This document shows, piece by piece, positions 23,935 through 50,159 of a stretch of 64,000 nt of DNA. Made by a program: the position numbers and the translations under genes. Origin of the DNA: a virus (lineage: Duplodnaviria > Heunggongvirae > Uroviricota > Caudoviricetes > Herelleviridae). Position 1 is the first letter of the stretch. Every line of letters starts with the position of its first letter. The DNA is taken from IMG/VR virus record IMGVR_UViG_2974502414_000001; one strand, 5' to 3'. The notes beneath the pieces were generated by a model, which made no database searches, was not told where the DNA came from, and worked only from the letters and a program-made list of their open reading frames with translations.

Positions 23935-25548
23935 ATGGCAACAAAAACACAAAGAAAGCTATACCAATATCTAGAGGAAAATGCTACAGAAAATAAATTT
24001 CATATTTCTACTAAGAAAGAGCTAGCAGATTCTCTAGGTGTTTCCATCTCTGCTTTATCCAATAACCTTAAAAAGTTAGAAGAAGAAAATAAAGTCGTTA
24101 CTGTTTCTAAAAGAGGAAAAAACGGCGGGGTAATAATAACTTTAGTTAGAGAGTATGACACAGAAGAATTGAAAGAATTCAATAATTCTACAGATAATAT
24201 TATTACTTCCGATTTACAGTATGCTAAGGCATTAAGAGAAAAGCACTTCCCTTCTTATAGATATGAGAGAAAAGAACAACGTAGACGTACTAAGATAGAA
24301 ATGGCACAATACAATGCCATTAAGGATGAGAAGAGAAGAATTATAGCAGATATGAATTTCTATTCAGAAGGTCTTCCTTATCCTTCTAAAGATATTTTTA
24401 ATATGTCCTATGACCCGGAAGGGTTTTATAAAGCGTACATCTTATGTAAGTTATACGACCAATATGCTATTTCTCATATGGATGCTAAACATACAAGTCA
24501 TCTTAAAGCAATGAGTAAGGCAACAACTAAAGATGAATACGACTACCATCAACATATGTCTGAATACTATAGAAATAAAATGATTCAAAATTTACCTAGA
24601 AATAGCGTTAGTGATAATTTCTTTGGTAGTAAAATGTTTAATACTTTTTATAATTTTTATTTAAAAATAAAAGATAAAAATATTAATGTATTTAAGTATA
24701 TGCAAAATGTATTTAAAAATGTAACATTTTATTACGAGAACGGTATGCAACCTAATCCAATACCTTCTCCTAACTTCTTTAGCTCAGATAAGTATTTTAA
24801 AAACTATAATAATTATATTAAAGGAATAAAAAAAGGTGTTAACAGTACTAATAGACACCTAGGTGATACAGACAGCATCATTAATTCATCAGACTATGTG
24901 AAAAACCCTGCTGTATTACATCTACACCAACTATATACTACAGGATTAAATTCTACTTTACATGATATTGATACTATGTTTGAACAAGCCTTAGACCTTG
25001 AAAATGCCTCCTATGGATTATTTGGAGATATGAAACATATTATTTTACTACAGTATAATTCTATGATTGAAGAAGAAATTAAGAATTTACCTAGAGAAGA
25101 AAAGGATATTATTAATAAATATGTAAAACAATGCATAATTAATGATTATTCACCAACAAGTATTTCACCTTCTGCAAGGTTATCAATGTTTACTATGCAG
25201 AAAGAGCATATAGTTTACAATAAGCAGTTAAATAAAGGAATCAAGAGAGAGGATTTATTACCATTAAGTCTAGGAGGTATAGTGAATAAAGATTTATTGA
25301 GTGGTATGGATATACAAAACTTAGAACAGAATGGTAATGAATACCTATATATGAGACAACATACTTCAACTTATTATATATTAAGAATGTTTGGTGACTA
25401 TTTAGGGTATGAGGTAAACTTAAGAGAAGTAAAATATATTGTAGAGAAATATAATTTAATTGATAAAATACCATTGACAAAAGAGGGTATGTTGGATTAT
25501 AATAAACTTATACATTTAGTAGAGGAAGAGGTTAATAACTATGAGTAA
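23935..25548 (+). CDS. Putative replication (Rep-like) protein with N-terminal winged HTH (537 aa)
   Basis: TKKELADSLGVSISALSNNLKKLEEE HTH; between two helicases. Confidence 0.6.
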   Translation: MATKTQRKLYQYLEENATENKFHISTKKELADSLGVSISALSNNLKKLEEENKVVTVSKRGKNGGVIITLVREYDTEELKEFNNSTDNIITSDLQYAKALREKHFPSYRYERKEQRRRTKIEMAQYNAIKDEKRRIIADMNFYSEGLPYPSKDIFNMSYDPEGFYKAYILCKLYDQYAISHMDAKHTSHLKAMSKATTKDEYDYHQHMSEYYRNKMIQNLPRNSVSDNFFGSKMFNTFYNFYLKIKDKNINVFKYMQNVFKNVTFYYENGMQPNPIPSPNFFSSDKYFKNYNNYIKGIKKGVNSTNRHLGDTDSIINSSDYVKNPAVLHLHQLYTTGLNSTLHDIDTMFEQALDLENASYGLFGDMKHIILLQYNSMIEEEIKNLPREEKDIINKYVKQCIINDYSPTSISPSARLSMFTMQKEHIVYNKQLNKGIKREDLLPLSLGGIVNKDLLSGMDIQNLEQNGNEYLYMRQHTSTYYILRMFGDYLGYEVNLREVKYIVEKYNLIDKIPLTKEGMLDYNKLIHLVEEEVNNYE

Positions 25549-48627: not shown

Positions 48628-48686
48628 CTATGTCTTATAGAATGCTTTAAAATAGATTACTAAAATAAAGATTGGAGATTAAGCTT

Positions 48687-49319
48687 ATGGCTAAAAAGAA
48701 TGTTAATGATGTATTACAACAAGAATCTGTTACAGTAGCAGATAAGTATTTACAAGTTAAAGTTAACCGTGACGGTTATACTCGTACACATGAAGGACAA
48801 TATGCGTACAAAGTAGTTTCAGAGGGAGAAGAATTATTCTTATACCCTGTACAAACAGATGGTAAAGGTACATTAAATGTAATGAAGAAATCACCTATTG
48901 CTTACACTGATGGAGACAATATCCATTTCGTAGTAAACACAGTAGTAGACCCTTATAATCACTCATTTATCCGTACTGAAGATATTAAAGGATTAGATAA
49001 AGGTAAACAACTTATTCAAGCTTTCTTAGCTTTCGTTGAAGACCGTTTCAAATTTGGTGTTTATAACGTATTTGTTGCAAACAACAAAGAGGATGTATTA
49101 TCTATTGTAGACCCTACAGATAATGATGCAGATGAAGTTAAAGATAGTTTAGAGCACGCACATGAAGATGTAATTGCGGATTTCCCTGCTAGCCCTGCTC
49201 GTAAGGACGTTAAAGGCGTAGATTCAGGAGAAGGTCAAGGAGACACTTCAGAACCATCAGCACCTAAGAACGTTCAAGTTACTCCTAAGGAAGACGGAGC
49301 AGACGTATCAGCAGAATAA
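48687..49319 (+). CDS. Virion accessory protein (210 aa) ending in FN3 strands A-B
   Basis: RBS GGAG, ATG 48687; C-terminal PSAPKNVQVTPKEDGADVSAE. Confidence 0.7.
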   Translation: MAKKNVNDVLQQESVTVADKYLQVKVNRDGYTRTHEGQYAYKVVSEGEELFLYPVQTDGKGTLNVMKKSPIAYTDGDNIHFVVNTVVDPYNHSFIRTEDIKGLDKGKQLIQAFLAFVEDRFKFGVYNVFVANNKEDVLSIVDPTDNDADEVKDSLEHAHEDVIADFPASPARKDVKGVDSGEGQGDTSEPSAPKNVQVTPKEDGADVSAE

Positions 49320-49341
49320 TATATAGATAAGGATGGTAAAT

Positions 49342-49854
49342 TTGGCTAAGTTAAATTTATACAAAGGTAATGAGTTACTAAACAGCGTAGAAAAAACAGA
49401 AGGAAAATCAACAATCACGATTGAGAATTTAGATGCTAATACGGATTACCCTAAAGGTACTTTTAAAGTATCATTCTCAAATGATTCAGGAGAGTCAGAG
49501 AAGGTCGATGTTCCTCAGTTTAAGACAAAAGCAATTAAAGTTATTTCAGTTACCCTTGACGTTGATAGTTTAGACCTTACAGTTGGAGATACTCACCAAC
49601 TATCAACAACTATCACGCCTAGTGAAGCATCTAACAAAAATGTGTCATTTGAATCAGACAAATCAGGTGTTGCTAGCGTAACATCAGAAGGCTTAATTGA
49701 AGCAGTTAGTGCAGGAACAGCTAATGTTACTGTAACTACTGAAGATGGTAGTCACACTGATATTGTTGCTGTAACAGTTAAGGAACCTATTCCTGAAGCA
49801 CCTGCAGACGTAACAGTTGAACCTGGTGAAAATAGCGCAGATATTACTGTATAG
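49342..49854 (+). CDS. Tail accessory Ig protein (170 aa): FN3 strands C-G, Big_2 domain, FN3 strands A-B
   Basis: TTG start after AAGGATGG; VTLDVDSLDLTVGDTHQLSTTITP...GLIEAVSAGTANVTVTTEDG Big_2 pattern. Confidence 0.8.
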   Translation: MAKLNLYKGNELLNSVEKTEGKSTITIENLDANTDYPKGTFKVSFSNDSGESEKVDVPQFKTKAIKVISVTLDVDSLDLTVGDTHQLSTTITPSEASNKNVSFESDKSGVASVTSEGLIEAVSAGTANVTVTTEDGSHTDIVAVTVKEPIPEAPADVTVEPGENSADITV

Positions 49855-49868
49855 GAGGACAATAAAGA

Positions 49869-50096
49869 ATGGAAAAGACATTAAAAGTTTATAGTAATGG
49901 TGAAGTTGTGGGCTCTCAAGTAGCTAATAACGATGGAGCTACTACAGTATCTATTACAGGCTTAGAAGCCGGAAAAACTTATGCTAAAGGAGATTTTAAA
50001 GTAGCATTTGCTAATGATTCAGGTGAATCAGAAAAAGTAGATGTTCCTGAATTTACAACTAAAACTCCTACTGAAGAACCTTCAGGAGACGCATAA
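49869..50096 (+). CDS. Tail accessory protein (75 aa), FN3 strands C-G only, paralog of preceding N-terminus
   Basis: RBS AGGAGG; shares NDSGESEKVDVP with 49342 gene. Confidence 0.8.
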   Translation: MEKTLKVYSNGEVVGSQVANNDGATTVSITGLEAGKTYAKGDFKVAFANDSGESEKVDVPEFTTKTPTEEPSGDA

Positions 50097-50101
50097 TAAT
50101 T

Positions 50102-50129
50102 AAGACCAACTAAAAAGTTGGTCTTTTTT
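50102..50129 (+). terminator. Rho-independent terminator
   Basis: AAGACCAACT-aaaa-AGTTGGTCTT plus T-run. Confidence 0.88.
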
Positions 50130-50130
50130 A

Positions 50131-50159
50131 TTGACAATTTATAATATCTATGATACACT
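50131..50159 (+). promoter_or_regulatory. sigmaA-type promoter TTGACA-N17-TACACT
   Basis: Perfect -35, TG extension. Confidence 0.72.

What the first reader, a model, noticed from the sequence alone, without database searches (positions are those of the whole stretch)
48687..50096. FN3 domain split twice across three adjacent genes: candidate strand-complemented, self-extending Ig chain on the virion
Seen: gene 1 (210 aa) ends PSAPKNVQVTPKEDGADVSAE and gene 2 (170 aa) ends PEAPADVTVEPGENSADITV; both match the first two FN3 strands (P.AP.NL.V....TS..VSW). Gene 2 begins, and gene 3 (75 aa) consists of, the remaining FN3 strands (KVY...TITGLEA...Y...F.V...NDSGESE...T), with a Big_2 domain in the middle of gene 2. 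Each gene has its own RBS. Stops lie upstream in the downstream frames (TAG 49324, TAA 49863), so a simple frameshift at the stop cannot fuse them. Inference: the domains fold in trans, giving anchor[A-B] + ([C-G]-Big_2-[A-B])n + cap[C-G]. This would be a pilus-like donor-strand chain whose length depends on the gene2:gene3 ratio. From memory, a similar break point occurs in staphylococcal siphovirus tail genes.
Basis: partly seen in the sequence, partly recalled or inferred. Interest (0 to 1): 0.82.

Follow-up and report, generated by a model that had tools for sequence, protein, structure and literature searches.

The report
Split FN3 domain joins virion proteins
Three neighbouring virion genes of this Staphylococcus kayvirus each carry a piece of a fibronectin-type (FN3) domain cut at the same loop, and the proteins most likely hold together on the particle by completing each other's fold, a plug-and-socket attachment shared by many phages of Gram-positive bacteria but apparently not yet described in print.

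Summary
The window is a phage K-like kayvirus. Gene 1 (48687-49319) and gene 2 (49342-49854, TTG start) each end in a 20-21-residue tail. That tail aligns with strands A-B of intact FN3-like domains in relatives. Gene 2 begins with strands C-G, and gene 3 (49869-50096) consists of them.

Published MALDI masses of intact kayvirus virions (23,069, 17,718 and 7,818 Da) equal the three separate ORF products, so there is no translational fusion. The same three-gene cut is kept in Twortvirus, Silviavirus, Baoshanvirus and phage S2G3. The frame offsets at the junctions vary, and each gene has its own ribosome-binding site.

In staphylococcal siphoviruses the A-B tag lies in the +1 frame after a CCC-stop at the end of the tail-tube gene, and a separate gene starting with C-G follows. 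Other phages show the same layout after the capsid gene.

Of 130 protein clusters holding the C-G fragment, 86 start with it. AlphaFold2 folds a natural in-frame tail-linker-cap relative as one confident FN3 domain. Assembly in trans is therefore well supported, though only indirectly. A self-extending chain with more than one gene 2 unit is untested.

Earlier notes of this scan report the same split tag on other phage DNA. I found no paper describing it.

The parts
48674..48677 (+). Ribosome-binding site (GGAG) of gene 1, 9 nt before ATG 48687
48687..49319 (+). Gene 1, the anchor protein (210 aa). It has an N-terminal virion-binding domain (about residues 1-140), an acidic/Gly-rich linker and a C-terminal A-B tag. 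Residues 2-175 are identical to the chains of PDB 9rox/9roz.
   Evidence: virion mass 23,069 Da equals the product without Met (PMC5923470)
49254..49316 (+). A-B tag of gene 1 (last 21 residues): FN3 strands A and B, the donor
   Evidence: A-B profile hit at the exact C-terminus, E 4e-12; alignment to intact domains
49329..49333 (+). Ribosome-binding site (AAGGA) of gene 2, 8 nt before TTG 49342
   Evidence: the TTG start is confirmed by the virion mass 17,718 Da
49342..49854 (+). Gene 2, the middle unit (170 aa): FN3 strands C-G, a Big_2 domain, then an A-B tag
49342..49530 (+). C-G head of gene 2 (FN3 strands C, C', E, F, G), the acceptor
   Evidence: 49% identical to gene 3; profile E 9e-41
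49540..49761 (+). Big_2 (bacterial Ig-like group 2) domain of gene 2
   Evidence: Pfam PF02368, E 8.6e-14; PDB sequence matches
49792..49851 (+). A-B tag of gene 2 (last 20 residues), the donor
   Evidence: A-B profile E 2e-10 at the exact C-terminus
49853..49859 (+). Ribosome-binding site (AGGAGGA) of gene 3. It overlaps gene 2's TAG stop and lies 9 nt before ATG 49869.
49869..50096 (+). Gene 3, the cap (75 aa): FN3 strands C-G plus a short acidic tail, with no A-B tag
   Evidence: virion mass 7,818 Da equals the product with Met
50102..50133 (+). Intrinsic terminator (10-bp stem plus a T run) that closes the three-gene unit
   Evidence: the homologous terminator is annotated in phage Remus

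Best explanation
Genes 1, 2 and 3 are made as three separate late virion proteins. They assemble non-covalently by fold complementation.

The C-terminal 20-21 residues of gene 1, and again of gene 2, are a beta-hairpin that corresponds to FN3 strands A and B. The N-terminus of gene 2, and all of gene 3, is the five-strand remainder (C, C', E, F, G), whose hydrophobic core is open until the hairpin is inserted. The result is a 'nicked' Ig-like stalk: anchor domain, linker, FN3 (gene 1 tag plus gene 2 head), Big_2, FN3 (gene 2 tag plus gene 3 cap).

Shown: the split, separate translation, and presence of all three unfused proteins in purified virions. Inferred: the pairing itself and its order.

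Because a gene 2 tag could also accept another gene 2 head, longer chains are possible. However, the weak TTG start of gene 2 against the strong ATG and Shine-Dalgarno site of gene 3 suggests early capping and mostly short chains.

The likely role is the usual one of phage Ig-like decorations, namely weak adhesion to cell-surface polymers. A possible further role is docking other proteins that start with the same C-G head.
For: 1. Homology. Intact FN3-like domains in relatives align strands A-B to the tails and strands C-G to the heads. The gene break falls in their 8-12-residue B-C loop.

2. Separate proteins in virions. MALDI-TOF of intact K, 812, K1/420 and 131 virions gives 23,069, 17,718 and 7,818 Da (PMC5923470). 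The window's products compute to 23,068.1 (-Met), 17,717.2 (TTG start, -Met) and 7,817.4. All three Remus homologues are annotated as MS-confirmed structural proteins. Gene 3 is little more than a C-G fragment, yet it stays on CsCl-purified particles, so it must bind something.

3. Conservation of the cut. The same three-gene layout is found in Twort, Remus, Golestan101 and S2G3. Junction frame offsets are 1,2,0,0,2 and 2,2,1,1,1, each gene has its own Shine-Dalgarno site and start, and the in-frame cases have second stops.

4. The same donor-acceptor adjacency in other contexts. In 16 of 17 siphoviral loci a CCC-stop ends the tail-tube gene, a 21-residue A-B tag lies in the +1 frame, and a Shine-Dalgarno site plus ATG then starts a C-G gene. 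Three loci show the same layout after the major capsid gene.

5. Phage 47. The predicted +1 product is 25,205.7 Da (2+ ion 12,603.4). It fits unassigned peaks at 25,208 and 12,598 that Triavirus phages share. The separate 15,871-Da Ig protein is also seen.

6. Distribution. 86 of 130 clusters (at 50% identity) holding the C-G fragment begin with it. At least 11 of these also end in an A-B tag, including five minimal 86-93-residue C-G plus A-B units.

7. Co-loss. Gene 1 homologues whose tails have lost the A-B pattern (P0276, P0277, P0281) have no gene 2 or gene 3 downstream.

8. Structure prediction. AlphaFold2 was run on a natural in-frame readthrough (tag, 7 residues, cap) from the related locus L011. 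It gave pLDDT 89.9 and pTM 0.78 with the strands in FN3 order. All top 50 PDB matches are whole FN3 domains. BFVD matches include SPP1-type 264-residue tail proteins over 100 columns.
Against: - No direct evidence of binding was obtained: no multimer model, pull-down or map density.
- The fold test used a homologue about 50% identical with an artificial covalent linker, and its alignment contained intact domains, so a closed FN3 was favoured.
- BFVD's model of the free Remus cap superposes on the C-G part (TM 0.90). Predictors therefore also give the fragment a stable-looking shape alone.
- PDB 9rox/9roz hold only residues 2-175 of gene 1, so the tag and anything bound to it are not seen there.
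- Sepunavirus keeps an A-B-like tail without genes 2 and 3 beside it, although a protein with a C-G head lies elsewhere in that genome.
- Pfam fn3 scores are below threshold.
Confidence: 0.68

Rival explanations
1. The three ORFs are joined during translation (frameshift, hop or readthrough), so intact FN3 domains are made in cis, as in SPP1 gp17.1*.
For: Ig-like and FN3 extensions are often added to phage structural proteins by programmed frameshifting (PMC5009743, PMC6316719). Siphoviral relatives do use a +1 shift to add the tag.
Against: Virion masses equal the three unfused products to within 1-2 Da. Stops block every frame at both junctions. Frame offsets differ between genera. Every junction has its own Shine-Dalgarno site and start. 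In the siphoviruses the +1 extension also stops after the tag, and the C-G gene is separate. A minor fused species cannot be excluded.
Confidence: 0.03
2. There is no pairing. The C-G fragments are self-sufficient small beta domains. The A-B-like tails are flexible linkers or scars of module shuffling at a recombination hot spot, and genes 2 and 3 reach the virion by other contacts.
For: Predictors give the free cap a compact shape. Proteins with a C-G head exist without an adjacent tag gene, such as the GDSL hydrolase. Sepunavirus keeps a tail without adjacent genes 2 and 3. Pfam fn3 scores are sub-threshold.
Against: The tails keep a strand-like alternating pattern across genera, while the preceding linker drifts. 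They decay exactly where genes 2 and 3 are missing. Siphoviruses spend a conserved CCC-stop +1 shift on making just this 21-residue peptide next to a C-G gene. Gene 3 has no other domain to bind with.
Confidence: 0.17
3. Complementation occurs, but with another topology. Gene 2 closes on itself (its own tail completes its own head), and gene 1's tag takes gene 3. This gives two separate species and no chain.
For: Tags and heads look interchangeable. Siphoviral tail-tube tags that end like gene 1's tag pair with heads like gene 3's.
Against: In FN3 the end of strand G and the start of strand A lie at opposite poles. Gene 2's tail follows Big_2 by about 6 residues. The spacers in split units equal the inter-domain linkers of intact tandem arrays such as P0097. 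Minimal C-G plus A-B units have only about 7 residues between G and A. This geometry argument was not modelled.
Confidence: 0.08
4. The split is decay: a once single multi-domain decoration gene broken by mutations and on its way out.
For: Relatives carry single-chain versions of the anchor plus Big_2 (Listeria LP-124, Enterococcus 156).
Against: The identical cut is kept across at least five diverged lineages with intact ORFs, good start signals and abundant virion products. Both cuts fall in the same loop. 86 independent clusters start at the C strand.
Confidence: 0.02

Closest known systems
Bacillus phage SPP1 tail-tube proteins gp17.1 and gp17.1* (+1 frameshift at CCCUAA adds an 87-residue FN3 motif; PMC6316719)
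   Same: An FN3-type decoration hangs from the C-terminus of a structural protein. The siphoviral relatives found here use the same CCC-stop +1 site. BFVD shows a 264-residue Bacillus-phage tail protein matching the whole tag-plus-head model.
   Different: In SPP1 the whole FN3 domain is made in cis on one chain. Here the chain stops after strand B and the other five strands come from a separate gene. In the kayvirus no frameshift is used at all.
Listeria phages PSA, A118 and A500: Cps-L and Tsh-L made by +1 or -1 frameshifts (CCC_UGA); Lactobacillus phage A2 (PMC5009743)
   Same: Short C-terminal additions to capsid and tail-tube proteins are made by recoding at the stop. The capsid and tail contexts found here look the same.
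   Different: Those extensions are described as cis extensions. Pairing with a separately encoded partner is not part of the description in that review.
Donor-strand complementation in chaperone-usher pili (established knowledge, from memory)
   Same: An incomplete Ig-like fold is completed by strand(s) from the neighbouring subunit, which allows head-to-tail chains ended by a cap.
   Different: Pili lack one strand (G), and it is donated by an N-terminal extension with a periplasmic chaperone and usher. Here two strands (A-B) would be donated by a C-terminal tail, no chaperone is evident, and the fold is FN3.
Anchor-plus-Ig capsid decorations: T4 Hoc and T5 pb10 (PMC10385173, PMC5292684; seen only as titles and abstracts)
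   Same: A virion-binding domain carries a string of Ig-like domains on a flexible stalk. Single-chain relatives of gene 1 (anchor plus Big_2) exist in Listeria and Enterococcus phages.
   Different: Hoc and pb10 are single polypeptides. The kayvirus stalk would be three polypeptides held together by split domains.
Earlier notes of this scan on 'split FN3 docking tags' in Enterococcus, Limosilactobacillus and other phages
   Same: The same 21-residue A-B tag and a separately encoded C-G partner.
   Different: Those cases add the tag by frameshift to capsid and tail-tube proteins. The kayvirus hard-codes the tag on a dedicated anchor and on a middle unit, giving a two-step relay. These are AI notes and not independent evidence.

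Membership tests
Fibronectin type III domain (Pfam fn3 PF00041 / fn3_2 PF16893) | Sequence match to the family profile above the curated cut-off | tested here: not met
   Gene 3 versus PF00041: 13.5 bits against a cut-off of 25. Gene 2 versus PF16893: 15.6 bits against 27. Both cover only the second half of the profile.
Fibronectin type III domain (Pfam fn3 PF00041 / fn3_2 PF16893) | Seven-strand A-B-E / C-C'-F-G beta sandwich | tested here: met
   Met for tag plus head only, and in silico. The AlphaFold2 model of the L011 tag-linker-cap has pLDDT 89.9. All top 50 Foldseek PDB hits are FN3 domains aligned over 93-117 columns.
Fibronectin type III domain (Pfam fn3 PF00041 / fn3_2 PF16893) | All strands on one polypeptide | tested here: not met
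   Strands A-B and C-G lie on different gene products.
Bacterial Ig-like domain group 2 (Big_2, PF02368) | Profile match above the cut-off | tested here: met
   Gene 2 residues 70-143 (173-aa numbering): 51.7 bits against a cut-off of 22.8.
Frameshift-appended Ig/FN3 extensions (SPP1 gp17.1*, PSA Tsh-L type) | Slippery site at or near the stop, with the extension in a shifted frame of the same mRNA | tested here: not met
   Not met in the window: the tags are in frame with genes 1 and 2, and the next genes have their own starts. Met in the siphoviral relatives, where CCC-TAA/TAG/TGA occurs in 16 loci.
Frameshift-appended Ig/FN3 extensions (SPP1 gp17.1*, PSA Tsh-L type) | The extension encodes a complete domain in cis | tested here: not met
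   The extension stops after 20-22 residues (strands A-B) in all loci examined.
Donor-strand complementation polymers (chaperone-usher pilus type) | Subunit fold lacks strand(s) that a neighbouring subunit supplies | tested here: inconclusive
   Sequence and model evidence fit this feature, but no complex was modelled or measured.
Donor-strand complementation polymers (chaperone-usher pilus type) | Dedicated chaperone and usher; N-terminal donor extension | tested here: not met
   The donor is C-terminal and has two strands. No chaperone-like gene lies in the three-gene unit.
Herelleviridae anchor protein family (PHROG 1240 / 215; PDB 9rox) | N-terminal ~140-residue domain shared with Listeria, Enterococcus and Lactobacillus herelleviruses | tested here: met
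   PHROG 1240, E 7e-55. tblastn finds it in 365 phage records. Residues 2-175 are identical to the 9rox/9roz chains.

The most novel reading that the evidence does not exclude
The A-B tag and the C-G head form a general, exchangeable plug-and-socket system of Gram-positive phages. Any structural protein given the 21-residue tag, either hard-coded or added by frameshift to a set fraction of copies, can capture any protein that starts with the head. Such proteins include enzymes (GDSL esterase, hexosaminidase-like and glycosidase-like proteins in staphylococcal myoviruses). Units that carry both head and tag, such as gene 2 and the minimal 86-93-residue units, build chains of variable length.
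Probability: 0.3. Interest if true: 0.85.

Novelty: new variant of a known kind. Interest (0 to 1): 0.72.

Why it matters
It would explain three things. First, how three abundant kayvirus virion proteins, long mislabelled 'major tail protein' or 'tail morphogenetic protein', are held on the particle. Second, why so many phage 'Ig-like' ORFs begin in the middle of a domain. Third, what the very short frameshift extensions on capsid and tail-tube proteins are for.

Kayviruses are the main therapeutic staphylococcal phages. A natural 21-residue tag with a 65-residue socket that loads proteins onto virions after translation would be a ready-made display handle. It would also be a new natural example of assembly by fold complementation.

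Tried and rejected
- Finding what PDB 9rox/9roz is. No paper cites the code. The phage 812 neck and baseplate papers do not mention this protein by name. The gene 1 AlphaFold2 model was mediocre (pLDDT 65), and the Foldseek PDB copy did not return 9rox. The virion location therefore stays unknown.
- A first alignment for folding the full 338-residue L011 readthrough put all caps on the N-terminal head. A second put the caps on Big_2. Both were discarded, and the 105-residue tag-linker-cap construct was used instead.
- The window's own gene 1 tail plus gene 2, or gene 2 tail plus gene 3, could not be folded as one chain. No multimer option exists.
- Readthrough or hopping at the window junctions was rejected on stops in all frames, on the absence of matching take-off and landing codons, and on the MS masses.
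- Literature searches for strand complementation or a split FN3 in phages found nothing relevant.
- The window's own assembly is not held. The nearest whole kayvirus (G001) was scanned instead.
Full report
IDENTITY AND ANATOMY

The region is 98-99.9% identical to Staphylococcus kayviruses of the phage K, 812 and LM12 type. It lies after the recA-like recombinase and sigma-factor genes. Three + strand ORFs sit between an upstream hairpin and an intrinsic terminator at 50102-50133:
- gene 1, 48687-49319, 210 aa;
- gene 2, 49342-49854, 170 aa from a TTG start;
- gene 3, 49869-50096, 75 aa.

Each ORF has a Shine-Dalgarno site 8-9 nt before its start.

Pfam sees Big_2 in the middle of gene 2. It gives only sub-threshold fn3 hits, and these cover just the second half of the fn3 profiles, at gene 2's N-terminus and in gene 3. 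PHROG 341 ('major tail protein') begins with that fragment. PHROGs 1240 and 215 hold the N-terminal domain of gene 1.

IS THE SPLIT REAL?

Gene 2's N-terminal ~63 residues and gene 3 are 49% identical. The last 20-21 residues of genes 1 and 2 resemble each other.

In a six-frame scan of the whole window, a profile of the C-G fragment hits only those two places. A profile of the tails hits only the exact C-termini of genes 1 and 2 (E 4e-12 and 2e-10; next best 3.9).

A profile search of 1.8 billion cluster representatives found 130 clusters with the C-G fragment. In 86 of them it starts at the first residues of the protein, and 84 of those begin with Met. In the other 44, mostly very long repeat proteins, it is internal. 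The internal copies (P0097, P0098, P0136, P0221, P0128) are preceded by two strands that align with the tails. They are then followed by an 8-12-residue loop at the position where the split genes have stop, spacer and start (A5). The tails are therefore homologous to strands A-B, and the cut lies in the B-C loop.

ARE THE PROTEINS FUSED DURING TRANSLATION?

No. Štveráková et al. 2018 (PMC5923470, Table 3) measured intact virions of K, 812, K1/420 and 131 by MALDI-TOF. They assigned 23,069, 17,718 and 7,818 Da to the three annotated proteins. The window's sequences give 23,068.1 (gene 1 without Met), 17,717.2 (gene 2 from TTG 49342 without Met; the ATG 49333 start would give 18,044) and 7,817.4 (gene 3 with Met). 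Twort's gene 3 homologue also fits (7,638).

In phage Remus all three homologues are annotated as structural proteins confirmed by ESI-MS/MS, with a promoter before and a terminator after the trio.

CONSERVATION

Twort, Remus (Silviavirus), Golestan101 (Baoshanvirus) and S2G3 have the same three genes cut at the same places. S2G3's gene 1 carries an extra Big_2 before its tag.

Junction frame offsets are 1,2,0,0,2 (gene 1 to gene 2) and 2,2,1,1,1 (gene 2 to gene 3). Every junction has a Shine-Dalgarno site and a start, and the two in-frame junctions have a second in-frame stop. A conserved recoding signal is therefore excluded. Gene 2 starts with TTG in four of the five lineages.

More distant herelleviruses have single-chain relatives of gene 1 without any FN3: Listeria LP-124 (anchor plus Big_2), Enterococcus 156 (anchor plus two Big_2, and anchor alone) and Lactobacillus SAC12B.

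Gene 1 homologues whose C-termini have lost the A-B pattern (P0276, P0277, P0281) are followed directly by the homologue of the window's next gene, with no gene 2 or gene 3. Sepunavirus keeps an A-B-like tail without adjacent genes 2 and 3. It does, however, encode a 113-residue protein with a C-G head elsewhere.

THE SAME CUT IN OTHER VIRION CONTEXTS

Homologues of gene 2 in Mammaliicoccus and Staphylococcus prophages start with the C-G fragment and sit right after the tail-tube gene.

In 16 of 17 such loci the tube gene ends in CCC followed by a stop. The +1 frame then encodes a 21-residue A-B tag and a stop, and 20-70 nt further on a strong Shine-Dalgarno site and an ATG start the C-G gene. 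CCC-stop is the +1 site documented for SPP1 (CCCUAA, where it adds a whole 87-residue FN3 motif in cis; PMC6316719). It is also the site documented for Listeria phages PSA, A118 and A500 (PMC5009743).

In S. aureus phage 47 (Triavirus) the site is CCC AGC TAA. A +1 slip on CCC predicts a long form with [M+H]+ 25,205.7 and a 2+ ion at 12,603.4. This fits two peaks, 25,208 and 12,598, that six Triavirus phages share and that the authors left unassigned. The same spectra show the short tube protein (23,295) and the separate Ig protein (15,871). The assignment is my inference.

Three further loci have the tag in a shifted frame after the major capsid gene, followed by a C-G gene.

Some units carry both head and tag with no Big_2 between them (P0102, P0137, P0145, P0167, P0181; 86-93 aa). 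They look like one repeat of a tandem FN3 array cut out of register.

STRUCTURE PREDICTION

The window's pieces cannot be handed to the fold tool as one chain. In the related metagenomic locus L011, however, the middle gene and the cap happen to be in frame. Reading its two stops as Gly gives tag, 7 residues, then cap.

With an alignment of caps, heads and intact domains (A5), AlphaFold2 gave mean pLDDT 89.9 and pTM 0.78, with strands in FN3 order. The tag scored among the best-predicted parts. All 50 best Foldseek PDB matches are whole FN3 domains. BFVD matches include the free Remus cap over the C-G part only (TM 0.90) and 236-264-residue Bacillus-phage tail and FN3 proteins over about 100 columns.

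This shows compatibility, not binding. The linker is covalent, and the alignment contained intact domains.

LOCATION ON THE VIRION

PDB entries 9rox and 9roz ('Putative Ig-like protein', 10 chains) are identical to gene 1 residues 2-175. The anchor has therefore been solved, and the tag region is absent from those chains. I could not retrieve the entry titles or a paper, so head, neck or tail remains open. The database labels 'major tail protein' and 'tail morphogenetic protein' for genes 2 and 3 appear to come from similarity to the siphoviral Ig genes next to tube genes.

MECHANISM AND RIVALS

The best reading is a non-covalent relay: gene 1 tag into gene 2 head, then gene 2 tag into gene 3 cap. 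This gives a nicked anchor-FN3-Big_2-FN3 stalk (confidence about 0.68).

Chain extension by gene 2 on gene 2 is possible in principle. Tags and heads look interchangeable between contexts, and minimal head-plus-tag units exist. It is untested, though. The weak TTG start of gene 2 against the strong start of gene 3 argues for early capping (inference).

The rivals are:
- no pairing at all (0.17);
- self-closure of gene 2, with gene 1 taking gene 3 (0.08);
- translational fusion (0.03);
- decay (0.02).

NOVELTY

The following are known: Ig-like decoration of virions, frameshift-added Ig/FN3 extensions, and donor-strand complementation in pili. I did not find in the searchable literature a split FN3 whose halves sit on different virion proteins, nor this kayvirus relay.

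Earlier AI notes of this scan describe the same tag and partner on Enterococcus, Limosilactobacillus and other phage DNA, and first-reader notes flag the same trio in other kayvirus genomes. So within the scan this is a recurrence. The kayvirus case adds three things: hard-coded tags, a two-step relay, and direct published MS proof of separate virion proteins.

Noticed in passing
G001:C1:12955-14844 (- strand; locus L040), nearest whole kayvirus genome, outside the window: A third protein starts with the FN3 C-G head (E 9e-13) and continues into a GDSL/SGNH lipase-acylhydrolase domain (PF13472, 5.7e-20). No tag-bearing gene lies next to it. In other staphylococcal phages the same head is joined to other C-terminal parts (annotated glycosidase, hydrolase, tail spike; BFVD lists a hexosaminidase). 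Genome-wide, G001 has two terminal tags (genes 1 and 2) and three heads.
   Followed up: partly
L034:3356-3460 (Staphylococcus phage 47, NC_007054 7355-7459): The tail-tube gene ends CCC AGC TAA. The +1 product (...SLP-ANPQNV...SAE) is predicted at 25,205.7 Da. It matches unassigned peaks (25,208 and 12,598) shared by Triavirus phages in PMC5923470.
   Followed up: yes
L035:2390-2500, L036:2390-2500, L037:2410-2500: An A-B tag lies in a shifted frame directly after the major capsid gene, followed by a gene that starts with the C-G head. The shift sites differ: a possible -1 slip on A AAA TAA, a possible AAA G site, and CCC AGC. In L036 a cap gene precedes a head-plus-tag unit.
   Followed up: partly
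L011 (ENA metagenome contig, 5,060 bp): The contig has siphovirus-type connector and tail-tube genes upstream of the Ig genes, but herellevirus-type genes (83, 124, 72 and 242 aa, as in Golestan101) downstream. It is either a real mosaic at the shared module or an assembly chimera.
   Followed up: no
L049:2601-2942 (Sepunavirus BE07): A 113-aa protein with a C-G head lies behind a terminator and a TTATATTA late-promoter-like box. It is a possible partner for the Sepunavirus gene 1 tail, which has no adjacent gene 2 or gene 3.
   Followed up: partly
G001:C1:56657-58429 (+): A 591-aa ORF has an internal weak match to the A-B tag profile (residues 279-297, E 6e-5). It is not at a terminus and was not examined further.
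   Followed up: no
window 49333-49344: Many database records start gene 2 at ATG 49333 (173 aa). The virion mass and the Shine-Dalgarno spacing show that TTG 49342 is used (170 aa).
   Followed up: yes
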